From Candidatus Kaiserbacteria bacterium (GTDB lineage: Bacteria > Patescibacteriota > Minisyncoccia > Phycocordibacterales > UBA2100): DNA of 64,000 bases. The stretch is from positions 320,210 through 384,209 of the forward strand of contig CP070993.1 in assembly GCA_017134395.1 (NCBI GenBank). Direction: 5' to 3'. How positions within the stretch are numbered: the stretch's first letter is position 1; every line of letters starts with the position of its first letter. Under the pieces are notes generated by a model. The model did no database searches and was not told the DNA's origin. It worked only from the letters and a program-made list of their open reading frames with translations. The position numbers and the translations under genes are program-made. Of the stretch, positions 7,096 to 26,904 are shown piece by piece.

Positions 7096-7135
7096 TTAAT
7101 TAAATTTAATTTAATTTAATCTTATCTTATCTTAT
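7096..7135. repeat. pentanucleotide tandem repeats (TTAAT/TAAAT)x5 followed by (CTTAT)x3
   Basis: ttaat taaat ttaat ttaat ttaat cttat cttat cttat. The last CTTAT unit overlaps the stop codon (7132..7134) and last codon of the giant gene. Confidence 0.7.
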
Positions 7136-10100
7136 ATTGTTGAGTCGGTAGTGGTTGCTGTTTCTTCTGCAGGTGTGTCTGTTGCCACTGGTTCAATGAC
7201 TTCGTCCACTGTGTCCTCTACCACTTCCTCTTCTACTGTTTCTTCTACTACAGGTTCTGTTGTGTCGTTTACGACTGGTTCAGTACTTGTGGCTGTAGTG
7301 TCTTCTACAACTTCTTCTTCTACGATAACGGGGTCTGTACTGGTTGCTGTGTCGTCTTCAATGACTACGGCAGGAGTTGAAGTGGCTGTGTCTTCTACTA
7401 CTGGTTCTTCAGTTGGTGTTCCTGTTCCCACTATCACGGTGCGTTCGATTGTTGCTGTTTGTTCGTTGGTGTCTGTAGCACTGTAGGTAATGGTGTGGGT
7501 GGCATCTGTGGTGGTGTCTATATCTATAGTGGTGACTGCTTCACCGTTGAGGGTGAGTGTGATGCTTAAGTCGTTACCGTCTGCGTCTTGTGCGGTGATA
7601 CCGAGGTCGCTGTAGTTAGCGTTAAGAGCAATTTCAGCGGGGTTGGTTCCGATGAGGGTGAGGGTTGGTGGGGTTGAAGTAGTTGTTGATGTAGCTTCTG
7701 TTTGAGTGGTTGCTGAAGCGACACCGGCGAGCTGTGCCTCTACCGCTACGAGTCGCTCTTCAAGTGCCGCAATTTGTATGTCCTTAGAACTCTGCCAGTC
7801 AATGAGTTCGGCGATCCTTTTTGTATTCTCCTGCACAATCACCCACAATTCTTTAATTGCCTGTATTAAATACAAAGGTAAGTCAGAAAGGTTAGTATCA
7901 AAATATTCTGTTCCATTAATAGTTGTTGTGCCTACCATTTCAGGGAACGTAACCTTTAATTCTTGTGCAATGAAACCAGAAATACGGCGACTTCGTGTTT
8001 CTTCATCATATCCAGTCAATTCGTTATAGTTATAAGTTACTGGACGTAATTCACTAATTCTTTCGAGGGTAGTAGTATCCTCTGTCGATAACTCGGTAAT
8101 GTTTTCCTTTAGGCGTCGATCGGAATAGTTCGTCCATGCAGTATACCCATTTGCTGCAGGCTGGCCGTTTAATTGAAGTTTATACGTTGGGTTTGTTACA
8201 CCAATACCGACTTCGCCAGCGGGGTCGATAACTATTGCATCATTAGTTATACCACTACCGTAACTATTTGAAGTTCCAAAATGCAATTCCGTTCCAGAAG
8301 GAGTTATCTTTGCTGCTATTCTTGCTAAAGGTACAGCGCTAGATCCAGACGCACCAGCAAAATCAATACTATTGAAATAATTTGCTGTATATGGACTACT
8401 TATTCTTAATACACCATCACTGGTACCAGTAAAAGATGAGATAGATGTTCCTTCTACATGCAATTTCGTGTCGGGAGTATCAATACCAATACCGACGTTG
8501 CCACCTTCAAGAATACGCATGCGTTCGGTTAGTGAACCTGCTGAAGGAGTAGTTGAGAATGTTAAATACCCTTGGTAGTTTGATGAAGCAGTACTTCCTA
8601 CACCCATAGTTATGCTTGAAAGGTCTTGGCGAGCCACTGTACCGGTTGTTGTGATGGTATTTTTAAGAACGGGACTCACACCAGAAACGGCAAAGTTAAC
8701 GGTTGAGTCATTAGAACCAAGGTTAACTGAGAGCTTTGATTCTGGCGTTGTGGTGCCGATACCGACGTTGCCAAGTAGATAGTTGTTTCCTGTACCATCT
8801 ATGGAAAGAGCACCATCTAATTGTAAGTCACCAGCGCGAGATACACTTCCGACAACTGTTGCAGCACCATCTCCAAATTTTATCCCTCCACCAGTAGAGC
8901 CTTCGTCCCAGTTTAAATACACACTTCCCCCTGCGGTAATTGGGTTTATGACGGTATTTACATTGTCTGTCAGTCGAAGTACGTGTGTACCGGCGTCCGC
9001 GATAATGCTTCCGGTAACGTTTATATTTCCTTGTACATCAAGTACTTGCGATGGTGTCGTCGTACCAATACCCACACTACCTTGTACTGCCAAACCATTG
9101 TCGAGCTCGGTTGTGTAGTATGAATCTCCAATTGAAACTCCACCTATTACACCTACGTGACTTCTATCGTATACGCCACTACCTGGGTCGAGCACAATAC
9201 CCGTAGCAAAAGACACTTGTAGTTGTTGATACGTATTTGCTGTCCATGCACCTGCAGTTCTGTAAATTCCGTACCCGGAAGCAGTATGCCAGTAAATACC
9301 TTGACTTCCATCAGTCGTGACATTGTCACCAAAGGTTATTTGCCCTGTCGTTGATAAGTCTAAGTCTCTCGCGGGAGTTGCCGTACCAATACCGACGTTA
9401 TCAGTCCCCGTTGCTAAGTACACATCAGTACCGCCATCAGTCCACCCACCGCCAGATGATGCCGAGAAGTCAGTCCATGCGCCTGCGTTGTTTTTATATT
9501 GAATAGTTCCTGCGTTGTCGCGGAAACCGTAGCCAGTAGTGCCCGTGGTATCGCCCCAGTTGATGTAGCTTGAGGCTGTAAGACCGATGTTGCCTGCAAC
9601 ATCGAGTTTGTGGTCTGGTGTTGAATCTCCAATACCGACGTTGCCACCAACAAGATGCATAATATTTGCCGCGCCTGCACTGAAGAACAGACGGTCAGTA
9701 GCATGATCGTATTGAATACGTCCTATGTCATTATCACTCGGATCACCAAACAAAACCGAACCAACACTTGATGCAGTATTGAAAATGGTCAAGCCAGTAT
9801 TGCCGCTACTTTCAAGAACAAGTTCGTCGCCATTTGAAATTGGACTTCCTACCGCACCAGCGGAACTGTCATAAATCCATACTTTTGCTGAAGGCGTCGT
9901 GGTGCCGATGCCGACGTTGCCTGCATCGTTTACATACAGTTCAGGGTTTCCTGAGATAGTGCCTCCTCCCCATATACCAATACCACCATTTGAACCATCG
10001 CCGTAACCACCAATCGCTCCAGAATATACATCTGATGATCCTTGGAAGGAAATAATCTGCCCGCTCCCTGCCACGGAAACATTCTGTGTATTAGTGTCGA

Positions 10101-13100
10101 GAGTTAGTAGATTTACTATAGAACCATTACTTCCATTTTCTACCAATTGCAATTTCGTAGCTGGGGTGGTGGTTCCGATACCGACGTTGCCGGTGTTGGT
10201 AAAGGTAAGTACATCACCTGCACCATCAATAAAGAGTCGCCCATCATCACCAGTAGGGTTATATAACCAAGCATTACTACCTGAGCTATCACGTGGTCCT
10301 GCAAGGAAGCCTGCACGCGAATCATTACCCGAACGTACAACACCGATAACATCAAGTTTTTCAGTTGGTGTCGTGGTTCCGATGCCGACGTTGCCTGCGG
10401 TGTAGCTGATGTCGGGGCTGTTGTGTGTCCAGAGACCGTTACCGCCGTCAATGCGGGAGCCGGTGAAAGAAGTATATGCACTCCAGCCATTTATATCTTT
10501 ATTGCTTGCACTCGATTGATGGACGTAGACTTCGAAATAATCTGTTGTTCCATTTGCATCTACTACAACACTCACTTGATTCGTTCTAAAAGTACCTGTC
10601 GAAGTCTTATAGTCACTGCTATATAATGCCCCATTCTTGTAAATTGCCATATATGTCTGGTCACTATCTGAGACACTCTCGAATCTTGTTTTTGTTGTTA
10701 ACAAATATTTACCAGCAACCGTTGGGGTAAATCTATCACTCGCAAAATCAGAGTTAGTATCAAAGTGCTCTGTTGTCCAAGCCACCTTTGTCCATGTATT
10801 TCCTGGGATGCTTTGAGCCACATTGTTTCGATGTACCGAGAAGGATGGTGAAATACCGTCCCCTGCGGTGGCAAAGGAGAGGTTGCCACTGGCGTCAGTG
10901 GTGAGGAACTGTCCTGCGGTACCGTCAGCAGTTGGGAGGGTGAAGGTGGTGTTGCTGGTGATGGCGTCTGGTGCCTTCAGAGCAACATAGTTGTCACCGT
11001 TAGCTTCGAGCTCTTCAAAGCGTACTTCACCGGTGTTGCCTGCGGAGGTGCCGAATGGATTAAGTGAAAGTGCTGATGCTGATTCATCAAAGAATAGCGG
11101 TGCGTCACTTGTTGTTCCTCCAATGGCAAGGTCGTCGGTGAGTGAGGTGAGGTAGGTGGTGGTGCCACCGTCGGTGAAGAGTGCGGCACCACTGCCTACT
11201 GCACTACCATTCCAGTACAAACTACCACTAACGTTGTAGAGTGCGTTAACGGTAGTTGCAGGAGTCGTTGAGGCAAGTGAGAGAGCGCCATTAACTGAGA
11301 GTTTGGTGGTGGGGGTGGTGGTGCCGATACCGACGTTGCCTGAGGAGTTGATAGTCAAGTCGCTACCTGAACCAGTTCCAAATTGCACGGCGTATTCTCC
11401 ACGTATAACCATAGCGTTCGTAAGTGCATCGCTAAAGACTTGACCTGGTGTCGCGTAACCAGAATACCCAACCAAAGCGTTTGAATTGTTTTTATATGTT
11501 ATGTACCCAGCAAGATCTGAACCTTGGAAAATAGCGAGGTCAGGGTTGTTTTTATAAAGATGTAATAGCGCTTGAGGGGATGTGGTGCCGATACCGACGT
11601 TGCCTGTACTGTCAATCACCAAATCTGAAGCTGAGTTCGTCCATAAATGTAGGTCACCAGTTGTTTGGTGAACACCTATATTCGCTTCTTGATCTCCGGC
11701 ATTATCGAAGAACGCTAGACCTGGGTAACCACCAGGTGTACCGATTCTTACTGCGTCACCACTACTTATTCCCGTTTTTACACTTAGACCCCAACCAGCC
11801 AACGTAGATGTGCCAATTCCCACATTCCCATTGCTGACATCTGCGAACAACGCTGGTGTACTTGAGGTGCCGACGCGGAAGTCACCCCAGACGTCCAGTT
11901 TAGATGCGGGGGAAGAGGTGCCGATACCAACGTTGCCTGATGAAAGTGTTGATTGAGTACCATCAAGACCTGTACCGTAAATGAGATTTCCAATGACTAA
12001 TTGATTATTGGCTGTTGCGCTCGGTACAGCCACGTTGTAACCAATAGAAATGTTATTTGCACCACTTGTTATTTGGTTTTGTGCTCCAGATAAAGTTGCT
12101 GCACCAATAATAGTGTTATTTGAACCAGTAGTAACTCCATATCCTGATTTGAATCCGAGGAAGGTGTTGTAGTTGCTGCTTGTTGCTGCTGAATACCCAG
12201 ACTGTGTACCAACGTACGTTCCTCCTTCGTTATAATAGTTACTTAAACCTGCTGCTGCTGCTGCACCGACAGCTACTACACTATCTGGTGATGTATTGAA
12301 TCTTAAGGTTCCAATTGCATTACTTAAACCACCAATAGCAACGTTTGAAGAACCGTCAATATTTCCGATACCAGTATAGTATCCAAGAAACACATTTGCG
12401 TTACCAGTAGTGTTGTTAAGCCCTGCATTTGCTCCAAGAAATGAATTGGCAAACCCAGTGGTGTTGTTCATTCCTGATTGTACTCCAATAGCAATACTGC
12501 TCCCACCAATATATGCTGCTCCGCCCGCAGTTGAACTTCGCAGTGCGCGATACCCGATAGCTACGTTGCTTGCCGTTGATGTGGCATTCTCGAGCGCCTG
12601 ATAACCAACCGCAACATTCTTGGTTCCAGTTGTAAGTGAGGAAAGAGCACTCGTTCCTAAAGCGGTGTTTTCATTTCCTGTATGTGTTGTATTGCCAGTG
12701 TTACCAACAAATAGTGAACCCGTAGTTGTGCTTGCTTGCAATATTGTGTTTCCCTCTAACTTGTAACCGTTGCTAGTGTTTATGTAACCAAGTACATCTA
12801 GTTTGGAGCTAGGATTAGTAGTGCCGATGCCGACGTTGCCTGCGCTTGTGACAACCATTTGGTCATTAACACCATTTGTTCTGAATGAGAATCCGTTGCC
12901 AACGTTATCGTAAATTATCCTACCCATAACAGCACTGTCTGTGTCACCAAAATCTAAGAATGATTTTGTAGTAGGTGAGCTAATTATAGAAACTATAGTG
13001 TCACCGCTTCTTTGGAATGAAGCCACCGTTTGTGCAGAAGCAGTTATTGCTGTTCCACTTTGGACGACCTGCAGATTAGTACTTGGTGAGTCTGTTCCGA

Positions 13101-19100: not shown

Positions 19101-22100
19101 TATATTCTGAATCTGGTGTTGCTTGAATACCTACACTCCCATTAGAATCAATAATAAACGGAGTTGTATCGCTTGCTGAATCGTTCACAACAAAACTGTT
19201 GCCCGTACCTGTGTTAGTGATGGAGAGTACTTCAGTACCATCTGCTGCTATGTCAGTTGAAGCATCGAGTGCAAGCGCATCCTTAAATTCAGTGAAATCG
19301 AGCGTGTCGGCAGTAACATCAGCACCGTCAACGGTGGTGGTTGAGACAACACCTGAGCTGTTGGTGGTGAGGATGCCTCCGGTGAGTGCGCTAAGAGTAA
19401 GTGCTGATTCAAGTATGGTGTTGCCGGTGATACGTGCGGTGCCTGAGACATCTAGTTTGTATGATGGCGCAGCGTTTCCAAGACCTAACTGCCCAGTATT
19501 ATCAATATAAACAGTCTGAGTGTTATTGGAACCTCCTCCACGCAACTCTAACTTATGTGAATTAGAGTTCTCACCGATGTATGTATTTTGGTTACTAAAA
19601 TAGATATGAGAATTATCGGGACTCAACCCTATAGAGCCAGCAACATCGAGCGCATACGATGGGGTGCTGTCGCCAATCCCCACATTTCCACTACTCACAT
19701 CAGCAAACAATGCGGGAGTACTTGAGGTACCGACGCGTAGGTCGCCCCAGACGTCGAGTGCTGATGCGGGTGAAGTAGTGCCGATACCGACGTTGCCACC
19801 ATCTGCTATCACAATTCCGTCGCCAGCACCTTCACCCCATACATTGAGGTAACCAAAATTAGAGGCTTCGTTGTATCCGATAACAAGGGCGTCATCTGCA
19901 ATTGCGCTTTGTCCTATTGCTATGAAGTCAACATCGTTATCATCTGCATTAGTATTAAAGAAGCTTGCTATGTTTACCGTTCCACTTGAATCAGCTTCTA
20001 CATGCAATTTGGAGTTTGGCGAGGTGGTGCCAATACCGACGTTGCCTCCGGTTGATGGATTGATGTAAGTTTCTGCTCCTTCCAACCATAAATTTTTGTA
20101 AGAAGATGCGCCACGATCGTATGCCTGAACAAATCCATATCCGTTATATCCTAATTCGACTCCAGCACCGGAGGCTGTCATTGACGGCGCTCCAGTTGCA
20201 CGAAGATTTCCGGATACATCTAGAGTTGCCACAGGCGACGCCACCCCCACCCCAACTCTATTCGTTGAACTATCAATCACGAGAGTGTTTGCATCAAAGT
20301 TGAGATCAGCAGAGTTGGTGTCGAGGTCGAAGGTGGTGGTGGCGTCTACGGTGAGTGCATCTTTGAATTCAGTGAAGTCGAGTGTGTCTGCGTCGATGAC
20401 ACTTGCGTCGATAGTGGTGGTTGAGACGACACCTGAGCTGTTGGTGGTGAGGATGCCTCCGGTGAGTGCGCTGAGAGTAAGTGCTGATTCAAGTATGGTG
20501 TTGCCGGTGATACGTGCGGTGCCTGCTACGGTGAGTTTTTCAGCGGGAGTGGTGGTGCCGATACCGACGTTACCTAAATTATTTATCACAATCCCTTTAC
20601 TTGAACCATCAAAACCGTCTCTAGTAATTTTTAAGTTGTCTTCAGAATAATCAACCCCAATGAAACCGTATCTGGGTGTGCCATCAGCATCAGATGCCAT
20701 TCTGATGAATGAGTTGTCTGTATCATTTGTACTCAACCCAATATCTGCAATTCCGGTTGTTGAAAGTACATCTAATTTCCTACCTGGACTACCTGTACCA
20801 ATCCCAACCCTGTTCGTTGAACTGTCAATGTACAAGGTGTTTGAGTCGAAGTTTAAGTCAGCGGAGTTGGTGTCGAGATCGAAAGTTGTGGTGGTATCTA
20901 CCACTAGTGAGTCTGAGAGCTGTGCGAAGTTGAGTGAGTCGTTAACGATGTCTAAGGTGACGGCTGCTGATTCAGTACCAGAATTAGAAACCGTAAAGAA
21001 AGCGTTGCCTGCGTCTGCAAGCGTTGCGAGATAATTACCTGTTGTGTGTGTACCGAGTGTGATGAGGTTGTTAAGTGTGGTGGTTCCTGTGCCTCCGTTG
21101 GTTACAGGAAGAACTCCAGTGACCTCAGTGGTGAGATCAACCGAGGTACCAAGTGTTGTTTCGAGTGATCCTGAATTGAGAGTAAGTCCAGTACCAGTGA
21201 AGTCGGTGATTGTTTCTGAGTTGGTGCGGAATCCACCAGAGGCTCGTGTGACACCAACAACGTCGAGTGGATATGATGGAGTTACTCCTATACCAAAATT
21301 ACCAGATGAATCGAAACGAGCCACCTCTGTATTTGACGTACTAAACAATATCGCGCCAGCTTCCCTGTTGATAATAGCTAGATTTAGTCCGTTTCCTTGA
21401 ATAAGGCTACCGTCAGCAGCCAAAGTGCCTGTTGTTCCGTTAGTAAGTTTTAATTCGGGAAATGAAGTTGCATTGATGTGTAGCCCTGTTCCTCCACCAG
21501 CAAGAGCAGGTGCCGCGGTACCAATACCCACATTTCCTGCTATTTCTATGTCCCCATCACTTTGTGCTACCAACAATTCTGTACCTGCAGAATTTTCCAA
21601 ACGGATTGAACCACCACTTACTATTGGCCTGATATTTGAAAGCCACGCTATGTCAGCACCGTCATTCAATTGTAAATCTCCATCGATATGCAACTTCGAT
21701 CCAGGTGTTGTGGTACCAATACCGACGTTGCCTGCTCCATTAATGATCATTTGTGTATCGAGAGTTCCGTTCGAAGTGGAAAATCGCAAATCGCCGTACT
21801 CTGCACCAGATTCATTTTCAGAACTTATACGAGCACCTATATAATTTTCAGGACTTGCATCATTATTATCCCAATTCTGAAAATCTAAACGTCCATAATC
21901 TGCTCCCGCACTTTGCTTTGCGCCTCCAATGGTAACGGTGCGTTGTACATCAGCACTTCCCCCTCTATCTGCAACTATGTTCCCACCGTAAATATGTAGT
22001 TTCTCACTTGGTGAAGTAGTACCGATACCGATGTTGCCATCCACACCAACAGTCAGTACGCGACTACCACTGAAATCATCAGCTACAAAAATAGGTGCAG

Positions 22101-25044
22101 TTTGCGTATTAGAGCCTACAAGATGCAGTGTTGGTACAGTTGTAGTGCTTGAATCATTTTGAATAAAGAACGGTTGGTTTATATCAAACCGTTCGGACGT
22201 TGAATCCCATTTAACGACAGCATTTGGTACTACTGTTCCGCGGAAAAAGACAAGGTTCGAATCCTCCGTATCAACGGAGGCATTATCTGTATTAATCGTG
22301 AATGAATTATTACTCGTGCCTCCAATAGTTGTTGAAGCTGCAGAGATACTGTTCACGTTGATGTTATCAGCGTAAATTTCGTCCCAATAATATGATGGCG
22401 AACCGAGATCTCGCACTGCATTTACGTCAGGGATTAAATCTGAATTGATAGATGCATTAACGGTCAATGTATCAGAAGATGTGTCTCCGATAATGTTTGC
22501 ATTTCCGTTTACCGTTAAGCTACCGGTTACTGTTGTTGTTGCGAGATTCGCGCTGTTCGTTGCGACAAGATTAGTTGTTGTTGCGTTTGTTGCTGTGAGA
22601 TTTGTAAAAATGCTTGTAAGCGAAGTGAAGAGTGAGGTGTAAAAATTAGTTGAAGTTGCATTGGTAAATACAGAATTTGTTGCAACCAAATTTGTTGATG
22701 TTGCGTTAGTAAACACACCTGTACTTGGAGTTGCTGCACCAATGGGTGTGTTTTCGATGGTTCCTGCGGTGATGGTGAGGTCGTCTGCAACGTTTGCGTC
22801 TGGAAGAACTCCTGTTACGTCTGCTGTGAGGTCTATGAGTGACGTTGCAACACTACCCGCTGTTGCCTTTAGAAAGCCTGTGAGTGAGCCGAGTGAAAGT
22901 GAGGCAATTGTTGTTGTAGCGAGGGTTGTGGTACCGGTTGCAACGAGATTCGTTGACGTTGCATTTGTTGCAGTTAAATCAGTTACGACGCCGGTCGTAA
23001 TAGTTGCATCCGTAATAGTTGTTGTAGCAAGATTTGAATTTCCTGAAACGATGAGTGTTCCTGATGTTGTGTCGTTTGCAGCAAGATTTGTGATTGTCGT
23101 AGTCGCGAGAGTTGCTGAGTTGGTTGCAACAAAATCAGTTGTTGTTGCGTTGGTAAACGTGGCTTCAGTCGCGGTTAGGTTTGTTGTGAATGTGTTCGTG
23201 CTGGTTGCGTTCACTGCGGTAACATTTGTAAATTCGGCGGTGAGTGCTGAGAGGAATGAGCTAAAGAAATTAGTACTCGTTGCATTTACCAATACAGAAC
23301 TTGTTGCAAAAAGATTCGCTGTCGTGGCATTTGTTGTGAGTAAGTCGGTAATATTTCCTGTTGTAATAGTTGCATCGGTGATGGTTGTGGTTGCAAGGTT
23401 CGCGCTGTTCGTTGCGACAAGGTTTGTTGTTGTTGCGTTGGTGAGTATTGCATCATCTGCGGTGAGATTAGCAAATGCACCAGTGATGGCAGTGATAAGC
23501 GAAGTGTAAAAATTGGTACTCGTTGCGTTGGTGAGTACTGCGTCTGTTGCTACAAAGTTTGTGGCAGTTGCGTTGTTGACAGTGAGTTCTGTGATGGTCG
23601 TGGTTGCGAGAGTAGTAAGACCTGTTGCAGTAAAATCATTTACGGTAAGTGCACCTCCGAGAGATGTAGCTCCAGTCACTGAAAGATTCCCAGCAATACT
23701 TACATTATCACCAAACGTTGCTGCATTATTTACAGAAAGTGTCGTGGCTGCAACTGATGTATTGGTAATTCGTGAATTACTAATATCAACATCGCCAAGA
23801 TTATCGATACGCTGTGTAAGAGCTACTGCATGGAAGTTTCCGGCAACACCGCCGGCGTTTCTTGTCGAAACGCGCACTATTTCCTGACGTAATTCATTTT
23901 CTAACTGTTGCAGATCTACCAGCGATACACCGCTTTGAGTAACGATACGTTGTGTTTCTACAACACGTTCTACTACTGGTTGGTTAATTACATTGGTTAT
24001 ATTTCCTGAACCAGTTTGTTGTATCGGTACATATAGTGCATCGGTGTTTGGCGTTGTGGTAACAGTAATTTGAGGAGTATCTGTATTGTTCTGTGCAATA
24101 GCTTTTACTGAAAGTTCAACACGACCACGGCTATTTCCTGAATGTACGAACATCAAACTCGAACCGATGTCAGCATTAACCCCAGCAAAGAAACCTTGAA
24201 CATTAACATATACTTTTCCGAACAAATCCAATGCGCTCACTTGCGCCACTACGTTTTTTCCCAAAACAGAAGCTGCTGGCTGTGAAGCAAAGTCGTCTAG
24301 AGCGATAACTGAATTACTAAAATCTGTGTTGATCTTTGTAATAAGATTAGGTAACGCATCAAAAACACTTGCAACCTTAATTATTTCTTCTTCGAAAGTA
24401 TCAAGTGCAGTAGTTCGATACTGTGCATGAGAAAGTGCTGAGGTACTAAACACCAATGTGACTGCAGTTATGAGAGCCACGGACTTTTGCACAAAAGTGT
24501 ACACAGGATTCGCGGGCACAATTGGCGTACGAACAATTACCTCTTGCCGAAGACCATCGGCGGCAGCACCAGTTTCAAGCAAACGCTTTCGGAAGTACGT
24601 ACCGGTGATTGGTTGTTCTAGTTTGTGAACACTAACGGCCTTTTGTACACTTTTGGCTTTTGAAACAATTGGGGTAACGAGATTCTTTTCTACCTTATTT
24701 TTGTTTGCTGCGTATACTTCTTCTGCAATTTCTTTTGCCTGCTTTGCGTGTGCAGCAATTTTCTGTGCAAGAATTTTTTGTGCAGGAGCAATTTCTGGTG
24801 TCTTATATTCGTCCTTACGCTCTTTAGAAAGTTCTTCCTTGCGTACTACACGAGCATGTTCGATTCGTACAATGTGCTCCTTTAATGAAGTCTCTTCGAC
24901 AAACCACGCTCGTCCGATTCGGCGACAACTCACAGAACCTTCGCGGCACATTTTTCCAATATAGTCAGGAGTATACCCAGCAGCTTTACCAGCGGCATCC
25001 GATGAAAGGTACTTTTTGTTGTCGAGAGTTAAATGTTTGCTCAC
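7132..25044 (-). CDS. giant (5970 aa) membrane-anchored, fibre-like surface protein. It has an N-terminal excisionase-type HTH-like module, one TM helix, and a very long extracellular region. That region contains about 48 GNVGIGTTxPxxKL repeats, phage tail-fibre-like NxAIGYxAL repeats, a C1q/TNF-like domain, a peptidase-S74-like intramolecular chaperone motif, an Ig-like domain and an acidic T/E/V-rich tail.
   Basis: One uninterrupted 17,913-nt ORF, essentially impossible by chance. The start is GTG at 25044, with no ATG in frame until residue 32 and no SD within 20 nt. Residues ~12-50 read YLSSDAAGKAAGYTPDYIGKMCREGSVSCRRIGRAWFV, which is HTH_17-like. The TM helix is FVQKSVALITAVTLVFSTSAL at 24425..24500. 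The repeated motifs are listed in the findings. Confidence 0.85.
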   Translation of the reverse strand: MSKHLTLDNKKYLSSDAAGKAAGYTPDYIGKMCREGSVSCRRIGRAWFVEETSLKEHIVRIEHARVVRKEELSKERKDEYKTPEIAPAQKILAQKIAAHAKQAKEIAEEVYAANKNKVEKNLVTPIVSKAKSVQKAVSVHKLEQPITGTYFRKRLLETGAAADGLRQEVIVRTPIVPANPVYTFVQKSVALITAVTLVFSTSALSHAQYRTTALDTFEEEIIKVASVFDALPNLITKINTDFSNSVIALDDFASQPAASVLGKNVVAQVSALDLFGKVYVNVQGFFAGVNADIGSSLMFVHSGNSRGRVELSVKAIAQNNTDTPQITVTTTPNTDALYVPIQQTGSGNITNVINQPVVERVVETQRIVTQSGVSLVDLQQLENELRQEIVRVSTRNAGGVAGNFHAVALTQRIDNLGDVDISNSRITNTSVAATTLSVNNAATFGDNVSIAGNLSVTGATSLGGALTVNDFTATGLTTLATTTITELTVNNATATNFVATDAVLTNATSTNFYTSLITAITGAFANLTADDAILTNATTTNLVATNSANLATTTITDATITTGNITDLLTTNATTANLFATSSVLVNATSTNFFSSFLSALTAEFTNVTAVNATSTNTFTTNLTATEATFTNATTTDFVATNSATLATTTITNLAANDTTSGTLIVSGNSNLATTTITDATITTGVVTDLTATNATSTNLVATGTTTLATTTIASLSLGSLTGFLKATAGSVATSLIDLTADVTGVLPDANVADDLTITAGTIENTPIGAATPSTGVFTNATSTNLVATNSVFTNATSTNFYTSLFTSLTSIFTNLTATNATTTNLVATNSANLATTTVTGSLTVNGNANIIGDTSSDTLTVNASINSDLIPDVNAVRDLGSPSYYWDEIYADNINVNSISAASTTIGGTSNNSFTINTDNASVDTEDSNLVFFRGTVVPNAVVKWDSTSERFDINQPFFIQNDSSTTTVPTLHLVGSNTQTAPIFVADDFSGSRVLTVGVDGNIGIGTTSPSEKLHIYGGNIVADRGGSADVQRTVTIGGAKQSAGADYGRLDFQNWDNNDASPENYIGARISSENESGAEYGDLRFSTSNGTLDTQMIINGAGNVGIGTTTPGSKLHIDGDLQLNDGADIAWLSNIRPIVSGGSIRLENSAGTELLVAQSDGDIEIAGNVGIGTAAPALAGGGTGLHINATSFPELKLTNGTTGTLAADGSLIQGNGLNLAIINREAGAILFSTSNTEVARFDSSGNFGIGVTPSYPLDVVGVTRASGGFRTNSETITDFTGTGLTLNSGSLETTLGTSVDLTTEVTGVLPVTNGGTGTTTLNNLITLGTHTTGNYLATLADAGNAFFTVSNSGTESAAVTLDIVNDSLNFAQLSDSLVVDTTTTFDLDTNSADLNFDSNTLYIDSSTNRVGIGTGSPGRKLDVLSTTGIADIGLSTNDTDNSFIRMASDADGTPRYGFIGVDYSEDNLKITRDGFDGSSKGIVINNLGNVGIGTTTPAEKLTVAGTARITGNTILESALTLSALTGGILTTNSSGVVSTTTIDASVIDADTLDFTEFKDALTVDATTTFDLDTNSADLNFDANTLVIDSSTNRVGVGVASPVATLDVSGNLRATGAPSMTASGAGVELGYNGYGFVQAYDRGASSYKNLWLEGAETYINPSTGGNVGIGTTSPNSKLHVEADSSGTVNIASFFNTNADDNDVDFIAIGQSAIADDALVIGYNEASNFGYLNVWGEGAGDGIVIADGGNVGIGTTSPASALDVWGDLRVGTSSTPALFADVSSGNVGIGDSTPSYALDVAGSIGLSPDNSHIYFSNQNTYIGENSNSHKLELRGGGSNNTQTVYIDNTGQLGLGNAAPSYKLDVSGTARITGNTILESALTLSALTGGILTTNSSGVVSTTTVDGADVTADTLDFTEFKDALALDASTDIAADGTEVLSITNTGTGNSFVVNDSASDTTPFIIDSNGSVGIQATPDSEYKLDVRNPGTTVLVGVHSNSTGRPAGIEFGTGSATNNYGFVGYDGSTINFGSVYAFGVDTTISNRGTEYIRLTGGNVGIGTTTPDGTLHVFDTGNADILAERSGGAKVKVQAQASAGQIGTQTSHPLQLITNAGARLTIDTSGNVGIGTTSPASALDVWGDLRVGTSSTPTLFTDVSSGNVGINTATPALGLTIAQNADDNGLRVYGYDDRSTRYGEFYVDATGYLNVNALVNGYIKSNGADLLQWGSGFLRVNNNTPLRFGSGTDYSVGYYNVDDTFRITDGTDLTSTPRLTLDNTGNVGIGTTTPSGKLHVTSADQLVSTFERTSGSGYTQVDIKANVAGDTGNSVLTFSDTSGSPGLIDYEHANDSLAFSTSGSEALRIDASGNVGIGTTTPAEKLHVSEGDILLDNNQFLKGSLASGFDRNLIGYDATENLIIGHSGTSVTGDVNIYAGTASKKIGFFPDGATEAVRITDSGNVGIGTTSPVANLAVVGEVLATTGFYSENTTITGGTPFGILVGGADDSTNIFDIAAGGAYGKEGGWIRFPRGGVGTNASRAWIGSTYTGNYGDDIRIYSSKLGNNNQTATSSALNAVFRQDYVSLHTGSAGASDTSERLRITSAGNVGIGTSTPGNMNFRTNLDIAGGTYGGAVTIYGDDAATKLSGWFDSGTPQAAKFGTQSSHQLDLMVGNTERLSIDTSGNVGIGTSTPEAKLVVWDSTDVSSSGGGALRVGASNTDFIAIDNNEIQAIGSGVASSLYLNTDGGTVFIHDATDGVFAVNSDDLYVTGAGNVGIGTTTPASKLDVWGDLRVGTSSTPALFTDVSSGNVGIGTASPSQKLIVYQASAGTPAVIETDGGFTALQLKTGTGLVNLVATGGDFNVQTGGAERFRITNTGNIGIGTTTPANQLTTTGSVQFAALTGGILTTNSSGVVSTTTIDASLIDADTLDFTEFKDALTVDATTTFDLDTNSADLDFDNNTLYIDSSANMIGIGDPTPSNKLDVQGALRVGSGYNNVVAPSNGAIIEGNVGIGTTGPGAKLDVEGDVIIATGLNVGGDLGAATGTIYAYDGVNGGNFGKDSGDLFDIRDGQIFVRQNDNWEYQFLTSDFSPYFNDANDLGTASKQWQDLYTIDGFFSGNIGIGTTTPEETLHIYNSDPSVKLTNASSPSSYRSVISHNWDTNNGFGIYSGTNLTQVMGAANNVGTVFFPNGNVSIGTTSASYKLDVHNENGGVLARFKDSDSVHEGIIIAGDVNGGWIGNNALATGEGFYIQDSLNGIRTYAGGVEVSRALATSYTFNELGADIDFRVEGVGEVNALFVEGSSGNVGIGTASPDTALEILSTDQPQFQITYNSTNKAAFQRSGGDFKLQVSDSGGTLQDRLTVNESGNIGIGTTNPDSILTGTALSISTQGARTTGDGIGSLNFITNDASYTGTYADGIGAEISAISDSATGAAYGLAFTTGTITSSNRAERLRITSTGNVGIGTTTPLGKLHISSAVSGAPAVSSSADELVVEGIGPAGISIVGGTSSDTSIFFGDSGSQTMGRIVYDNNANDLSLWTTATERLTIDSSGNVGIGTTTPDATLSIYETAVANPLRVYSNTYNAVALFNSSDNNAVITISDDDTTSYLLAEDGYTSIGGNNALDAGNLNINNTSGNVGIGTTTPEQKLEVVGGNIQIDNNQYLKSRLTTGTSVNLIGYNSGNQTIVGANAEVKLDGTATLQPPGNIVFQPGGTSDINATLDSDTDLNVGSGMLFVEGNTGNVGIGTTTPDSLLHVAGVSKFGYDGIGLDSSLVQLFGGSTTSGNQQSFSFEVGDTGLSDLNTKNLVVRGASGSSDIAFSPSTSYPGLLMLDGSTGNVGIGTTSPASTLDVWGDLRVGTSSTPALFTDVSSGNVGIGTASPSSKLDISGSGALLEVGTALTINDASTYGLDSNQKLRITRNDPGIVFKESDASNQEWFVHSLGGNFSLRDLTAGSVYPFTVQAGAGQDSLLVQSDGDVIMNQGNVGIGTDSPSTNLQVVQSGTAITASAQTVASFQRSGDTIVSIISSPTTKSFLDFGDTDSAVMGRIIYDNVGNGFSFRTNGVNDQMVVTSAGNVGIGTTNPSSKLDVLGYINTSNGYKLEGNTILQASTTTGSLFVGNTGNTTHTGNENTALGTSALSSLTTGTKNVAVGYQALENATSTASNVAIGYRALRSSTAGGAAYIGGSSIAIGVQSGMNNTTGFANSFLGANAGLNNTTGNANVFLGYYTGIGNIDGSSNVAIGGLSNAIGTLRFNTSPDSVVAVGAAAAAGLSNYYNEGGTYVGTQSGYSAATSSNYNTFLGFKSGYGVTTGSNNTIIGAATLSGAQNQITSGANNISIGYNVAVPSATANNQLVIGNLIYGTGLDGTQSTLSSGNVGIGTSSPASKLDVWGDFRVGTSSTPALFADVSNGNVGIGTSTLAGWGLSVKTGISSGDAVRIGTPGGYPGLAFFDNAGDQEANIGVHQTTGDLHLWTNSASDLVIDSTGNVGIGTTSPQALLHLYKNNPDLAIFQGSDLAGYITYKNNSNALVGYSGYATPGQVFSDALTNAMVIRGEYAVQFGTGSGSDLTINSSGNVGIGTTTPTTKLSVNGALSLASTTPATTVNALYNVSGSLYWNGSAVGSGAALFTDGGTTTYLTSLTDDLAIGGTTSDAPLFFDESASALSLNPFGTSAGNTGEVRFEELEANGDNYVALKAPDAITSNTTFTLPTADGTAGQFLTTDASGNLSFATAGDGISPSFSVHRNNVAQSIPGNTWTKVAWTTEHFDTNSDFASDRFTPTVAGKYLLTTKTRFESVSDSDQTYMAIYKNGALYSSDYKTSTGTFRTNQVSVVVDANGTTDYFEVYVHQSSASNKDINGWSAYTSFTGSRIDGGNGLWTHNSPDISYTAGNVGIGTTTPTEKLDVIGVVRSGNDSRAGFLAGPRDSSGSNAWLYNPTGDDGRLFIDGAGDVLTFTNTGNVGIGTTTPATKLQLVENGSNGSIVNLLTLDTNTQNVSVAGSGQIISFQGSSDVYSGAIGGYGDGSNGGIGIWGGGTISGNPELYVNDAGNVGIGTTTPSAKVWIYDSSAGAVGSPISNGDELVLESSGNTGLTIFNTASSVGSVLFGDPSDNDIGRIQYDHATDRLFFSAGAANIMHLVGGNVGIGDSTPDHKLDVAGNIGLTASSYINWGDTTGTTGYGFRDNAGTIQYKNNAGAWTDFSASSGGGWTDGGTDVYLATGTDNVGIGTATPARDLDLSTTGQITFGDNVTTDGSQGIYWHTASGYGIYRTAGAWTANTYQQLQVSFATGIVLDPGSGVYDRSHVGVIGGVSIGDSYYTTELDNGLAVQGSVGIGTTTPSQVLDVQGNINVTGSIIADAGTHVLRLTDNVNTVINPITAGGSVYLNWDEGSTGGGIKFGDGAATVVGSVSRAGDLQLDGALSIDGTGNNYLLGNVGIGTTTPESKLSVNLGSNDSTVNFAVSGVSPVLKNTITTTGTVARQDLSSITMGVGSTASSNYQGYLTFSTTPSAGSLTERMRILEGGNVGIGIDTPDTKLHVEGTSISSFTGTSDGVLRISSPYTANYFNSIDFAGASGSSAVPLARIAAKITPSGTELHFGTSNSYGSGITNDAIVIDPAGEVGIGVTNPTYKLQLNGQPAANGYTAWTNYSDRRLKENITELSTEDTTTLERISELRPVTYNYNELTGYDEETRSRRISGFIAQELKVTFPEMVGTTTINGTEYFDTNLSDLPLYLIQAIKELWVIVQENTKRIAELIDWQSSKDIQIAALEERLVAVEAQLAGVASATTQTEATSTTTSTPPTLTLIGTNPAEIALNANYSDLGITAQDADGNDLSITLTLNGEAVTTIDIDTTTDATHTITYSATDTNEQTATIERTVIVGTGTPTEEPVVEDTATSTPAVVIEDDTATSTDPVIVEEEVVEDTTATSTEPVVNDTTEPVVEETVEEEVVEDTVDEVIEPVATDTPAEETATTTDSTI

Positions 25045-25502
25045 AAAGTGTTTGATGACTTGTTCGGAACTCCGTTATATCTATATAATACTAGGTATTT
25101 CGGCACTCTCCCAACTCTCGCTTGGGGATAAAGTCTGCGCCTTTTTTTGACAAAAAGGACTCTGAAAACAGTCAAAAACCTTCTACTAAAAATAATCAAT
25201 ATCTGGCAATCTCAATTTTTATGCATAATCAAAGTTTCCCAGATACTTTTTTATCTTGAAGAACCTTCCTAACTCACTGCAACTATTTTTATTACTCGAT
25301 AAGCACGATAACCACCTCCTAACCCTAACAACCCAGGAAAGTACTCAGTGACTTCACAGTCCCTTGTAAGCAGCCAAAGATTACCATTGTCGAGATCTTT
25401 AAGGGACAACGATGTGTTCTTCTTAGCGTCTAATTGTTCTTAGAAATATAAACAAAGCGGTTTGTGGGCAGCATTTGTATAGAATTATATAAAATGGCTC
25501 TA

Positions 25503-25561: not shown

Positions 25562-25680
25562 TTATCCGAGGTTCATATTTGCACATCTTATCTTGCACTT
25601 TGCTGCCCTTTAGGCGTTTAAAACTAAATAATTCATACTACCATGCAGGAAAAGAGAGCTTATAAGTCCAGTAATCTGCG

Positions 25681-25851: not shown

Positions 25852-26904
25852 CTATTCAGAAGAGTAGTTGAATTCTGATCCAGGTAGTATGTCTCCGTAC
25901 TTATCTTGCATCATTTCGATGAAAGTATTGTCTTCAAATAAGTTGCTCACAGCATCAAGACCAGAGAGACCAAACAGGTATAGATATGCTCCAGTAGAGA
26001 TAAGAATGAGCGCTAAAATTAGCATGCCTATAACTCCAACAATTGGAAATGAACGCTTTGCGGGTTTACTCTGAATGAAGTAGCTTTCCTCTCGTTCCCT
26101 TTTTTGTACCCCGCCTTCCCGAGATGGTATATTTCTAGGCGTGGTTTGAGTAGTTATCGGTGGAACTGCTCTAGGAGTGGAGACAGGACGAATATCGGGG
26201 TTCATTTGCTTAATTGGAGGGCGTTCACTTAATATATCACCAGACGCATAGGTTTGGGCTTCATTAAATGCAGTTTCTTTTTTTACAGAAGGAATTTCTG
26301 GATTACTTTCAGCTACGTAGCGTACGTTGAAATTGATGTCTCCAGGATCAATATCAGTTTGGATATTTACAGCAACTCCAGTAGCATCCTTTCCAACTGC
26401 TCCCTTCTCAGTACTATAACCTTCAGTGCGTACACCACTGGACTGTGCCTGAACTTCAGCCAGTAGACCATCGTTGTGTTTTTTGTGAGCGATAAGTGAG
26501 TCCTTACCTACAAACCAACGGCGACCTACTTTTCGTGCTTCTAATTCACCACTTCTGGCAAGCTGACCAATATAATCTTGTGCGTAGCCAGTAACAGCAG
26601 CAGCGCGAGATGTTGCGATGTACTCTGTGCCGTCATACTTGAATGTGTCGTCACGAACATTCCCTACCTTCATACCAAGTGCGCTCTTGCCTTGCTCATT
26701 TTTATTTTTTGTATCAGCTTCAACACCATTTTCTTGGTACCGCTTCAACCCATTTTCATCGACATACCAATGCCCAGACACTCGTCGACACTCAATTTTA
26801 TCTTCCCTGCAAAGCTGGCCAATATAGTCCTTCGAATAACCACTCAGCTCTGAAGCACGAGTAGTTGATATTAAAGTGTCATCACCGATAGTAACGTCTT
26901 CCAT
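25852..26904 (-). CDS. membrane protein with two tandem excisionase-type HTH-like modules, a low-complexity linker and a C-terminal TM anchor. It is a 'stub' paralog of the giant protein N-terminus.
   Basis: 350 aa. The modules are RASELSGYSKDYIGQLCREDKIECRRVSGHWYV and SRAAAVTGYAQDYIGQLARSGELEARKVGRRWFV. Both match the giant protein's N-terminal module and the HTH_17 pattern (A..G.s...I..l.R.G.l...rvGrrW.v). The TM helix is IVGVIGMLILALILISTGAYLYLFGL near the C-terminus. Confidence 0.6.
   Translation of the reverse strand: MEDVTIGDDTLISTTRASELSGYSKDYIGQLCREDKIECRRVSGHWYVDENGLKRYQENGVEADTKNKNEQGKSALGMKVGNVRDDTFKYDGTEYIATSRAAAVTGYAQDYIGQLARSGELEARKVGRRWFVGKDSLIAHKKHNDGLLAEVQAQSSGVRTEGYSTEKGAVGKDATGVAVNIQTDIDPGDINFNVRYVAESNPEIPSVKKETAFNEAQTYASGDILSERPPIKQMNPDIRPVSTPRAVPPITTQTTPRNIPSREGGVQKREREESYFIQSKPAKRSFPIVGVIGMLILALILISTGAYLYLFGLSGLDAVSNLFEDNTFIEMMQDKYGDILPGSEFNYSSE

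What the first reader, a model, noticed from the sequence alone, without database searches (positions are those of the whole stretch)
7132..25044. 5970-aa single-ORF giant surface protein assembled from phage tail-fibre-like modules
One uninterrupted 17.9-kb ORF takes up 28% of the window. Architecture by eye:
- cytoplasmic excisionase-type HTH-like module (aa ~12-50);
- K/A/E-rich linker;
- single TM helix (24425..24500);
- T/N/A-rich ~8-residue periodic stalk (about 22450..23800);
- about 48 copies of the motif G-N-V-G-I-G-T-T-x-P-x-x-K-L-x-V;
- a block of N-x-A-I-G-Y-x-A-L phage-fibre-type repeats (about 11980..12720);
- a C1q/TNF-like jelly-roll;
- an S74-type intramolecular chaperone motif;
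- an Ig-like domain;
- an acidic T/E/V repeat tail.
This looks like a host- or prey-attachment fibre of an episymbiotic or small-genome bacterium, but with an unusual intracellular DNA-binding-like head.
Basis: partly seen in the sequence, partly recalled or inferred. Interest (0 to 1): 0.8.

Follow-up and report, generated by a model that had tools for sequence, protein, structure and literature searches.

The report
Membrane-anchored phage-like giant surface fibre
A marine ultra-small (Patescibacteria) bacterium encodes a real 5,970-residue protein: a probably ~0.3-0.4 µm cell-surface fibre built from phage-tail-fibre parts. It is held in the membrane by one helix and carries a DNA-binding-type domain inside the cell, so it is a plausible but untested tool for grabbing host cells.

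Summary
ORF 7132..25044(-) is uninterrupted (5,970 aa). Its internal repeats are old and diverged, so a collapsed-repeat artefact is unlikely.

- an Xis/MerR-type winged HTH head;
- one TM helix;
- a T/N/A-rich stalk, with period 5/10/15 rather than 8;
- 41 strict and about 50 profile copies of GNVGIGTTxPxxKL;
- an internal C1q/TNF jelly-roll;
- an S74 chaperone with an intact SDRRLK motif;
- an Ig-like domain and an acidic tail.

The repeat unit is that of the Bdellovibrio MAT (mosaic adhesive trimer) fibres and of phage tail fibres.

The host genome is a Paceibacteria-type Patescibacterium. The HTH head is not a one-off. In at least 19 of 80 related genomes, gatB is followed by a small paralogous HTH-TM gene and then by a large HTH-headed ORF of 532 to 2,705 aa (eight of them cut by the end of the fetched locus). 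The base of these proteins is conserved and the outer part varies.

Best reading: a type-II membrane-anchored trimeric adhesion fibre matured by S74 autocleavage. The role of the head is unknown.

This is a new variant of a known kind. The adhesion function is inferred, not shown.

The parts
7132..25044 (-). Whole gene: 5,970-aa HTH-TM-fibre protein (GTG start, stop codon at 7132-7134)
   Evidence: Start supported by homologs that begin at the same residue (P0001, P0002).
24859..25044 (-). Cytoplasmic winged HTH head (aa 1-62), Xis/MerR/HTH_17 type; holds the only two Cys residues of the protein
   Evidence: Pfam HTH_17 E 0.014, sub-threshold. Paralogue BLASTP 4e-14. Profile A1 109.8 bits. AF2 pLDDT 92-98. 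Foldseek matches: Xis, BldC, RdfS, RacA, TraN. Cys positions.
24508..24858 (-). K/A/E-rich cytoplasmic linker (aa 63-179), largely one long helix followed by a disordered stretch
   Evidence: Composition. AF2 helices 51-79 and 87-139, low confidence 140-178.
24424..24489 (-). Single transmembrane helix (aa ~186-207); N-in topology inferred
   Evidence: Only hydrophobic peak in the protein. N-terminal 180 aa have net charge +12; the C-terminal flank has net -2. AF2 helix 180-205. Conserved in P0001 and P0086.
23725..24423 (-). Juxtamembrane region and conserved 'neck' (aa 208-440), including ERVVETQRIV, a heptad-like helix and ALTQRIDNLGDVDISNS
   Evidence: Conserved in P0086, P0012, P0001 and in syntenic ORFs of L002, L010, L021, L039, L044, L067, L073. 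The structure model is low-confidence here.
22435..23724 (-). T/N/A-rich stalk (aa 441-870) with 5/10/15-residue periodicity (pentapeptide-like)
   Evidence: Autocorrelation, composition, DNA repeats D10 and D12. No Pfam family.
8164..22056 (-). Fibre body (aa 997-5627): about 50 modules, each ending in the capping-loop motif GNVGIGTTxPxxKLxV; MAT/phage tail-fibre type
   Evidence: PHROG tail-fibre families. PDB matches to Bd2133 8OND, 8OJN, 8OL4, 8OML. Motif consensus from PMC10769870.
11965..12732 (-). N-x-A-[IV]-G repeat block (aa ~4105-4360), phage tail-spike / virion-protein-like
   Evidence: PHROG 6002, 4636, 23837. Pattern count. No PDB or Pfam hit.
10849..11127 (-). Small 'LPTADGTxGQxLxTDxxGxLSF' module preceding the jelly-roll; repeated many times in homologs
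   Evidence: phmmer hits to multiple copies in P0004, P0009, P0023, P0026 and others.
10453..10845 (-). Internal C1q/TNF-like jelly-roll (aa ~4734-4864)
   Evidence: Profile against PDB. AF2 pLDDT 84.4. Foldseek: phi812 spike knob 2.4e-9, C1QL2, Caprin-2, TNF family.
7675..8124 (-). S74 intramolecular chaperone domain (aa 5641-5790); catalytic Ser5641 (8122-8124) in SDRRLK; C-terminal helical part
   Evidence: Pfam PF13884 E 7e-15. SDxxxK motif. MYRF ICA domain 7DC3 E 1e-5.
7429..7662 (-). Bacterial surface Ig-like domain (aa 5795-5872), located after the S74 domain
   Evidence: Pfam PF16403 E 2e-8. The same S74-then-Ig order is found in 5 homologs.
7135..7428 (-). Acidic T/E/V/D tail (aa 5873-5970)
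   Evidence: Composition. A similar tail is present in P0012.
25852..26904 (-). Upstream paralogue: 350-aa protein with two HTH_17 domains, a linker and a C-terminal TM helix; likely partner of the fibre base (inferred)
   Evidence: Pfam HTH_17 2e-9. Family of 7,869 representatives, of which 136 of the 150 listed have a TM helix. Conserved position between gatB and the large gene.

Best explanation
The gene encodes a type-II (N-in, C-out) membrane-anchored, homotrimeric surface fibre of a Paceibacteria-type Patescibacterium.

**Shown**
- The first ~180 residues form a cytoplasmic Xis/MerR-type winged HTH followed by a long charged helix.
- A single TM helix follows.
- The remaining ~5,760 residues are Cys-free and acidic. 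In order they contain a conserved neck, a period-5 T/N/A stalk, and about 50 modules of the Bdellovibrio MAT / phage tail-fibre type (each ending in the GNVGIGTTxPxxKL 'capping loop'). A tail-spike-like repeat block and a C1q/TNF-like knob sit within this body.
- The protein ends in an S74 intramolecular chaperone with an intact Ser-Lys motif, an Ig-like domain and an acidic tail.

**Inferred**
- The polypeptide is exported through Sec, with the TM helix acting as a signal anchor.
- Three chains intertwine, with folding nucleated from the C-terminal S74 domain as in phage endosialidase, phage T5 pb1 and MAT Bd3182.
- The S74 domain then cuts at Ser5641 and releases the ~330-residue C-terminal piece.
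- The mature fibre is roughly 0.3-0.4 µm long. This extrapolates about 0.7 Å per residue from the 550 Å model of the 922-aa Bd3182. That length is of the order of the cell itself.
- The fibre contacts host-cell surface glycans or proteins through its clefts and its C1q-like knob.
- The conserved base (HTH-TM-neck) is the retention end, and the variable outer part is the specificity end.
- The cytoplasmic HTH most likely fixes the base of the fibre to DNA, or to the paralogous 2xHTH-TM protein encoded just upstream.
For: **Reality of the gene**
- establish the ORF.
- Repeats are diverged.
- An independent TARA contig carries the same 5' end at 73-75% identity.
- The same start-to-end domain order occurs in single proteins of 2,100-2,700 aa: P0012, P0122 and the large ORF of L043.

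**Fibre identity**
- PHROG tail-fibre families hit at E down to 3.5e-60.
- The repeat unit aligns to the Bd2133 crystal structure at E 1.4e-14.
- The published MAT capping-loop consensus V-G-G/N-pi-x-x-P-x-x-x-L and the SDxxxK motif both match.
- 919 homologs exist. The named ones come largely from Patescibacteria and predatory lineages (Yanofsky-, Roizman- and Kaiserbacteria, Paceibacterota, Nanoarchaeota, Oligoflexus, Halobacteriovoraceae, Pseudobdellovibrionaceae), but also from Verrucomicrobia, Bacteroidia and Bradyrhizobium.

**Knob:**

**Topology**
- There is only one hydrophobic segment.
- The N-terminal side carries net +12 charge.
- The ectodomain is Cys-free.
- AlphaFold2 predicts the TM helix.

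**Not a prophage**
- The neighbours are gatB, obg, secA, GAPDH, RPE and transketolase.
- The order gatB, small HTH gene, large HTH-headed gene recurs in at least 19 of 80 related genomes and in the P0086 locus.

**Head fold:**
Against: - No data on expression, surface exposure, trimerisation, cleavage or binding.
- The TM segment is only moderately hydrophobic (Kyte-Doolittle 1.62) and no dedicated topology predictor was available.
- Direct Pfam scores for HTH_17 and C1q are below threshold or absent.
- The S74 domain is not C-terminal. It is followed by an Ig-like domain and an acidic tail that cleavage would discard, although this order is conserved in 5 homologs. This is unexplained.
- Some syntenic HTH-headed proteins carry no fibre motif at all (L034, L073), so the conserved function of the family may lie in the base rather than in adhesion.
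- The length estimate is an extrapolation.
- No cultured host-symbiont pair exists for this lineage within the evidence I could access.
Confidence: 0.6

Rival explanations
1. Envelope or structural role. The fibre is a constitutive surface coat or spacer (an S-layer-like fringe, cell-cell tether or protective glycocalyx scaffold) rather than a host-specific adhesin.
For: - The locus is conserved next to housekeeping genes in many Paceibacteria.
- Some family members lack fibre modules entirely (L034, L073).
- The gene lies about 9 kb from an O-antigen-ligase-like gene and 11 kb from a surface-polysaccharide cluster.
- The ectodomain is highly acidic and T/S-rich.
Against: - The distal part varies strongly between related genomes while the base is conserved. 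This is the pattern expected of specificity determinants.
- The modules (S74 fibre, C1q/TNF knob, tail-spike-like block) are those used by phages and Bdellovibrio for target recognition.
Confidence: 0.2
2. Transmembrane signalling device. The protein is a membrane-tethered DNA-binding factor. Its three cytoplasmic HTH heads are brought together by extracellular trimerisation, or respond to load on the fibre, and so couple host contact to transcription or nucleoid anchoring. It may act together with the 2xHTH-TM paralogue. This is compatible with an adhesin role.
For: - The head has a genuine DNA-binding fold (Xis, BldC, RdfS, RacA, TraN).
- It has invariant D27, Y28, R34 and W47.
- The head is conserved across the family, whereas other fibre proteins use MerR-type HTH heads in the same position (P0016, P0067).
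- A paralogous membrane-anchored double-HTH gene is always adjacent.
- Known precedents, from general knowledge: ToxR and CadC (membrane-bound transcription factors), RacA (chromosome anchoring) and RodZ (HTH-TM binding MreB).
Against: - No DNA target, operator repeat or regulated gene was identified.
- The 807-bp upstream gap was not analysed for binding sites.
- HTH folds can serve as protein-binding modules, as in RodZ.
- The S74 cleavage site is on the wrong side of the membrane to release the head, unlike MYRF.
Confidence: 0.15
3. A phage or prophage tail-fibre gene (a virion component) that happens to lie in this window.
For: PHROG tail-fibre hits. IMG/VR contigs with 40-68% identical distal modules. 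A holin-family ORF at 29936-30262 and a Y1 transposase next door.
Against: - No capsid, portal, terminase or baseplate genes nearby; the flanks are housekeeping genes.
- The position is syntenic across many genomes.
- The N-terminus is an HTH plus a TM anchor, not a baseplate-attachment domain.
- 5,970 aa far exceeds the PHROG tail-fibre profiles it hits (956 and 1,178 positions).
Confidence: 0.03
4. An assembly artefact: collapsed, expanded or chimeric repeats create a false long ORF.
For: The gene is repetitive, and the related TARA contig L081 breaks inside it.
Against: - Repeats are only 60-89% identical at the DNA level and 25-63% at the protein level, so they do not confuse assemblers much.
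- The frame is open for 17.9 kb (P about 1e-164).
- Both ends match the ends of shorter intact homologs.
Confidence: 0.03

Closest known systems
Bdellovibrio bacteriovorus MAT (mosaic adhesive trimer) fibres, e.g. Bd2133, Bd3182, Bd2439 (Caulton et al. 2024, PMC10769870)
   Same: - The same ~90-residue repeat unit ending in the capping loop V-G-G/N-pi-x-x-P-x-x-x-L; direct alignment to the Bd2133 structure at E 1.4e-14.
- S74 chaperone with SDxxxK.
- TNF/C1q-like domains are used.
- Mosaic logic of a conserved base and a variable distal end.
- Both are carried by bacteria that live on other cells.
   Different: - MATs are about 600-1,000+ aa; this protein is 5,970 aa.
- MATs start with a signal peptide and a conserved ~130-aa beta-rich domain. 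This protein starts with a cytoplasmic HTH, a linker and a TM anchor.
- The C1q-like domain is internal, not at the tip.
- The S74 domain is followed by an Ig-like domain and an acidic tail.
Phage tail fibres and tailspikes with a C-terminal S74 intramolecular chaperone (K1F endosialidase, T5 pb1; PHROG 9942 and 18345)
   Same: Module homology, an S74 domain with the catalytic dyad, and close relatives on viral contigs.
   Different: - Chromosomal, in a syntenic housekeeping context.
- Membrane-anchored rather than baseplate-attached.
- About 5-10 times longer.
- The chaperone domain is not terminal.
MYRF (myelin regulatory factor), a membrane-bound transcription factor with an S74/ICA domain
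   Same: One polypeptide combines a DNA-binding-type domain, a TM helix and an S74/ICA domain; the ICA sequence matches at E 1e-5.
   Different: - In MYRF the ICA domain lies between the DNA-binding domain and the TM helix, so cleavage frees the transcription factor.
- Here the S74 domain is about 5,400 residues beyond the TM helix on the outside, so cleavage cannot release the head.
- The DNA-binding folds are unrelated.
Membrane-tethered HTH proteins: RodZ, ToxR/CadC and the chromosome anchor RacA (analogy from general knowledge; RacA also appears as a fold match)
   Same: N-terminal cytoplasmic (w)HTH, then a helix or linker, then membrane association. RacA-type MerR-like wHTH is among the fold matches.
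   Different: No sequence-family membership was shown. Their extracytoplasmic parts are small sensors or absent, not a 5,760-aa fibre.
Trimeric autotransporter adhesins (YadA family)
   Same: Long trimeric repetitive adhesin logic. The N-x-A-I-G block resembles head repeats by eye, and one homolog (P0040) carries Pfam PF05658.
   Different: No beta-barrel anchor, no Pfam YadA or Hep_Hag hit in this protein, and anchoring at the N-terminus rather than the C-terminus.

Membership tests
MAT superfamily (Caulton et al. 2024) | Fibre repeat units with the capping-loop motif V-G-G/N-pi-x-x-P-x-x-x-L | tested here: met
   41 strict and 50 profile copies. Alignment to Bd2133 8OND at E 1.4e-14, plus 8OJN, 8OL4, 8OML. 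Consensus taken.
MAT superfamily (Caulton et al. 2024) | Signal peptide followed by the conserved ~130-aa beta-rich N-terminal domain (present in all 21 Bdellovibrio MATs) | tested here: not met
   The N-terminus is an HTH (aa 1-62), a charged helix and a TM helix at about aa 186-207. There is no signal peptide. The post-TM region is modelled as helical with low confidence. The Bdellovibrio N-domain sequence itself was not available for direct comparison.
MAT superfamily (Caulton et al. 2024) | Ends in an S74 domain (SDxxxK) or an alternative adhesive tip | tested here: met
   PF13884 at E 7e-15 and SDRRLK at aa 5641-5646. However, 258 residues follow the S74 match.
MAT superfamily (Caulton et al. 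2024) | Homotrimeric and displayed on the cell surface | not testable with these tools
   Only monomer predictions were possible; there are no experimental data.
Peptidase S74 / intramolecular-chaperone tail fibre and spike proteins of phages | S74 domain with a catalytic Ser-Lys dyad | tested here: met
   MYRF ICA domain 7DC3 at E 1e-5.
Peptidase S74 / intramolecular-chaperone tail fibre and spike proteins of phages | Virion component encoded among phage structural genes | tested here: not met
   Housekeeping flanks and conserved chromosomal synteny.
HTH_17 / excisionase-family DNA-binding domain (PF12728, TIGR01764) | Score above the curated family threshold | tested here: not met
   16.1 bits against GA 27. 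NCBIfam gives no hit for the head. The neighbouring paralogue passes Pfam with 37.9 bits.
HTH_17 / excisionase-family DNA-binding domain (PF12728, TIGR01764) | Homology and winged-helix Xis-like fold | tested here: met
   BLASTP 4e-14 and 5e-13 to the paralogue's two HTH_17 domains. pLDDT 92-98. Foldseek matches: Pukovnik Xis (TM 0.72, rmsd 1.4 Å), BldC, RdfS.
HTH_17 / excisionase-family DNA-binding domain (PF12728, TIGR01764) | Binds DNA | not testable with these tools
   No experiment was possible, and no operator was sought.
C1q domain (PF00386) / TNF-like jelly-roll | Pfam C1q match | tested here: not met
   No C1q hit at E<=0.01 in the tiles, or at E<=5 in the tile covering aa 4601-5100. 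Homologs with the same domain do carry PF00386.
C1q domain (PF00386) / TNF-like jelly-roll | Profile homology to solved C1q domains and the jelly-roll fold | tested here: met
   Adiponectin 6.7e-13 and C1q 1.7e-12. Model pLDDT 84.4. Foldseek matches to C1QL, Caprin-2 and TNF family with probability 1.0.
MYRF-type self-cleaving membrane transcription factor | ICA/S74 domain located between the DNA-binding domain and the TM helix, so that cleavage frees the DNA-binding domain | tested here: not met
   The order here is HTH, TM, fibre, S74.
Trimeric autotransporter adhesins | C-terminal YadA-type beta-barrel anchor | tested here: not met
   No such Pfam hit. The C-terminus is S74, Ig-like domain and acidic tail.

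The most novel reading that the evidence does not exclude
The protein, together with the adjacent 2xHTH-TM paralogue, is a new kind of trans-envelope coupling device found across Paceibacteria. A phage-derived trimeric host-contact fibre is wired directly, through a single TM helix, to three Xis-like DNA-binding domains in the cytoplasm. Host contact or fibre load would then be read out on the chromosome, as gene regulation or as nucleoid or division-site anchoring at the attachment pole.
Probability: 0.15. Interest if true: 0.85.

Novelty: new variant of a known kind. Interest (0 to 1): 0.62.

Why it matters
How ultra-small Patescibacteria find and hold their hosts is largely unknown. Work so far centres on type IV pili in Saccharibacteria (abstract of 10.1101/2024.11.25.624915).

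This locus offers a concrete and widely conserved candidate in the much larger, uncultured Paceibacteria group. It is a fibre of the same construction that Bdellovibrio uses to handle prey and phages use to bind hosts, but anchored in a different way.

The conserved syntenic slot (gatB, then a small HTH-TM gene, then a large HTH-headed gene), with a constant base and a variable tip, gives a marker gene for host-range comparisons across metagenome-assembled genomes. It also gives defined fragments for biochemistry: the head for DNA binding, the C-terminal piece for S74 cleavage, and the C1q-like knob for glycan binding.

The analysis also uncovered an uncurated family of membrane-anchored double-HTH proteins (7,869 representatives at 50% identity) whose function is unknown.

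Tried and rejected
**Searches that failed or gave little**
- The search with the N-terminal 330 aa found only 2 proteins.
- The neck-profile search found only 3 fragments. The word-index search is poorly suited to these regions. It also listed nothing longer than about 2,470 aa, so I could not ask whether other giants exist.
- NCBIfam gave no hit on any tile. Pfam gave nothing for aa 1-5,600 apart from a weak DUF5793 hit.
- No PDB sequence hit for the N-x-A-I-G block. For the C1q region a single-sequence query gave only insignificant hits at E >= 0.088; the profile was needed.
- The cluster look-up gave no useful names.
- Rfam found only one tRNA in the window, so no rRNA-based taxonomy was possible.
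- Literature searches found no description of HTH-TM-anchored fibres, or of MAT-like fibres, in Patescibacteria.
- Plain self-BLAST returned only the diagonal; tiled masking was needed.

**Ideas rejected**
- Prophage tail fibre: excluded by genomic context and synteny.
- MYRF-like release of the head: the S74 domain is on the wrong side of the membrane.
- Trimeric autotransporter adhesin: no beta-barrel anchor.
- Polymorphic toxin: no toxin domain at the C-terminus.
- An 8-residue stalk period: the measured period is 5.
Full report

ORF 7132..25044 on the minus strand runs 5,970 codons from a GTG to a stop. At the window's base composition, an open frame of that length has a probability of about 1e-164.

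The GTG start is supported. An independent TARA Oceans gene call (P0001, 75% identical) and a shorter relative (P0002) begin at the same residues. A sigma-70-like site, TTGGGA-18-TATTAT, lies about 40 nt upstream.

- The repeated DNA segments are only 60-89% identical.
- The longest internal protein repeats are 25-52% identical, with a maximum of 63% over 84 aa.
- The beginning and the end of the ORF match the beginning and the end of intact shorter relatives with the same domain order: P0012 (2,401 aa), P0122 (2,135 aa) and the 2,705-aa ORF of L043.

Read depth could not be examined.

**2. Anatomy, N to C**

- **aa 1-62, HTH head.** Pfam HTH_17 is only sub-threshold (E 0.014). The segment is 38-40% identical to both HTH_17 domains of the upstream ORF 25852..26904 (E 4e-14 and 5e-13). 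It is modelled at pLDDT 92-98 as a beta-hairpin, two helices, a wing and a helix. Its best fold matches are mycobacteriophage Pukovnik Xis (rmsd 1.4 Å), BldC, the RdfS excisionase, TraN and RacA. So 'excisionase-type HTH' is correct.
- **aa 63-179, linker.** An A/K/E/V-rich linker, mostly one long helix.
- **aa ~186-207, TM helix.** This is the only hydrophobic segment of the protein. The side before it carries net +12 charge and the flank after it net -2. The only two cysteines of the protein are in the head. The 5,760-residue remainder is Cys-free and acidic (562 D+E against 224 K+R). That fits an extracytoplasmic location with the N-terminus inside.
- **aa 208-440, juxtamembrane region and neck.** It contains ERVVETQRIV, a heptad-like helix and ALTQRIDNLGDVDISNS. 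These are recognisable in relatives.
- **aa 441-870, T/N/A-rich stalk.** Identity autocorrelation peaks at lags 5, 10, 15, 25 and 35, not 8. The stalk is pentapeptide-like, but no Pfam family matches.
- **aa 997-5627, fibre body.** There are 41 strict copies of G-[NS]-[VI]-G-[IV]-[GND] and 50 profile hits, typically 65-110 residues apart.
- **Inside the body.** An N-x-A-[IV]-G block lies at aa ~4105-4360 and hits PHROG tail-spike and virion-protein families. A C1q/TNF-like jelly-roll lies at aa ~4734-4864.
- **The jelly-roll evidence.** Pfam misses it. A profile of 22 homologous segments hits adiponectin (6.7e-13) and C1q (1.7e-12). The AlphaFold2 model (pLDDT 84.4) matches the phage phi812 central-spike knob, C1QL, Caprin-2 and TNF-family structures.
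- **aa 5641-5790, S74 intramolecular chaperone.** Pfam gives E 7e-15, and the MYRF ICA domain 7DC3 gives E 1e-5. It starts exactly at the catalytic motif S-D-R-R-L-K.
- **C-terminus.** An Ig-like domain at aa 5795-5872 and a T/E/V/D tail.

**3. What the repeat is**

The ~90-residue unit aligns to the crystallised fibre part of Bdellovibrio Bd2133 (8OND, E 1.4e-14) and to three further MAT structures. Caulton et al. (PMC10769870) define the capping-loop consensus V-G-G/N-pi-x-x-P-x-x-x-L and the S74 motif SDxxxK for these 'mosaic adhesive trimers'. Both fit this protein. The paper also shows surface display, S74 autocleavage (Bd3182, S782A control) and glycan binding by a TNF-like tip.

PHROG tail-fibre families 9942 and 18345 hit every tile from about aa 1,900 onward, at E down to 3.5e-60. 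Ten IMG/VR contigs encode 40-68% identical distal modules.

The C-terminal 1,411 aa retrieve 919 proteins at E<=1e-8. Where named, these are 'tail fiber domain-containing protein' or similar. They come largely from Patescibacteria lineages, a Nanoarchaeota archaeon and predatory Bdellovibrionota or Oligoflexia, but also from Verrucomicrobia, Bacteroidia and Bradyrhizobium.

**4. Organism and context**

The flanking genes are split transketolase, RPE, GAPDH, GatB, Obg, SecA and a Wzy_C-TPR protein, followed by a polysaccharide cluster. The 80 best GatB matches among GTDB species representatives are almost all titled Patescibacteria or similar. The nearest is UBA2100 at 87%, then Kaiserbacteria, Paceibacterota and Parcubacteria at 55-62%. 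There are no phage structural genes nearby.

**5. The head is a family trait**

- An HMM of the head finds it in 3 further fibre homologs among the top 120: P0012, P0086 and P0122. Two others (P0016, P0067) carry a MerR-type HTH followed by a TM helix in the same position.
- In the GatB-anchored loci, gatB is followed by a small HTH(-TM) gene and then by a large HTH-headed ORF in at least 19 of 80 genomes. Complete examples range from 623 to 2,705 aa; eight others are cut by the end of the locus.
- The locus of P0086 shows SecA, GatB, a small HTH gene and then the large gene, as in the window.
- Distal content varies. Some relatives have fibre motifs and S74 (L043), and others have none (L034, L073). 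The head and neck recur throughout.
- The small paralogue belongs to a large uncurated family: 7,869 representatives at E<=1e-3. Of the 150 listed, 136 have a TM helix about 68 residues from the C-terminus. NCBIfam gives only a sub-threshold 'excise' hit.

**6. Mechanism**

Shown: domain identities, domain order, topology indicators, homology to characterised fibres, and synteny.

Inferred:
- Sec export with the TM helix as signal anchor.
- Trimerisation nucleated by the S74 domain.
- Autocleavage at Ser5641, releasing aa 5641-5970.
- A mature fibre of roughly 0.3-0.4 µm. This extrapolates from the 550 Å model of the 922-aa Bd3182.
- Host-surface binding through clefts and the C1q-like knob.
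- The head fixing the base to DNA or to the paralogous membrane protein.

Rival or complementary readings are a constitutive envelope fringe and a contact-to-chromosome signalling device. Prophage origin and assembly artefact are unlikely.

**7. Unexplained**

- Why an Ig-like domain and an acidic tail sit after the S74 cleavage site. This order recurs in five homologs and is never reversed.
- What the period-5 stalk folds into.
- What the head binds.

**8. Verdict**

The protein works like a MAT or phage S74 fibre. It fails the MAT membership criterion of the N-terminal signal peptide and beta-rich domain, replacing it with an HTH-TM anchor. It is best filed as a new variant of a known kind. 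In the literature I could search, neither MAT-like fibres in Patescibacteria nor HTH-TM-anchored fibres are described.

Noticed in passing
window 25045-25851: An unusually long (807 bp) non-coding gap lies between the small 2xHTH-TM gene and the giant gene. It contains a perfect 16-bp-stem hairpin, GTACCAATTCAGACAT-ccc-ATGTCTGAATTGGTAC, at 25683-25717. There is no Rfam match. It could hold a terminator, an operator or an unknown RNA.
   Followed up: partly
window 25852-26904 (-): A 350-aa protein with two HTH_17 domains, a linker and a C-terminal TM helix. It belongs to a very large family with no curated NCBIfam model (7,869 representatives at 50% identity; 136 of the 150 listed have the TM helix). 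It is conserved immediately after gatB in related Patescibacteria. Function unknown.
   Followed up: partly
window 6352-7002 (+); L093 1563-2246 and 13269-13940: An IS200/RAYT-like Y1 tyrosine transposase ORF sits directly 3' of the giant gene. The HTH-headed homolog P0012 is likewise flanked by Y1_Tnp genes in its own genome. The association may be coincidental or linked to module turnover.
   Followed up: partly
window 7429-8124 (-); P0021, P0028, P0047, P0100, P0105: Ig-like domain(s) always lie after the S74 chaperone, never before it, in six proteins including this one. If S74 cleaves, the Ig-like domain is discarded with the chaperone, which is hard to rationalise.
   Followed up: partly
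window 22661-23509 (+): A 282-aa antisense ORF lies inside the T/N/A repeat region. It is almost certainly a by-product of the biased repeat composition, not a gene.
   Followed up: no
window 35972-50603 (+): A block of about 15 same-strand ORFs with lower GC (0.38-0.40 against ~0.43-0.45). Of the nine scanned, six are polysaccharide-synthesis types: GDP-mannose dehydratase, epimerases, a DegT aminotransferase, a flippase and a GT2 glycosyltransferase. A Wzy_C-TPR O-antigen-ligase-like protein lies next to it at 33658-35889. The block is possibly horizontally acquired.
   Followed up: partly
window 29559-30262 (-): A YerC/TrpR-like small regulator (29559-29867) and a PF04020 'phage holin 4 TMS' family membrane protein (29936-30262) lie between obg and secA. 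No other phage genes are nearby.
   Followed up: no
window 1817-3685 (-): Transketolase is encoded as two separate ORFs: the N-terminal TPP-binding part and the pyrimidine-binding plus C-terminal part.
   Followed up: no
L095 14992-19143; L092 13713-17813: Other very large surface-type genes lie next to HTH-headed fibre genes in related genomes. One is a >2,800-aa Hint/intein-domain protein and another is a 1,366-aa Laminin_G_3/LVIVD protein. This suggests clustering of giant surface proteins.
   Followed up: no
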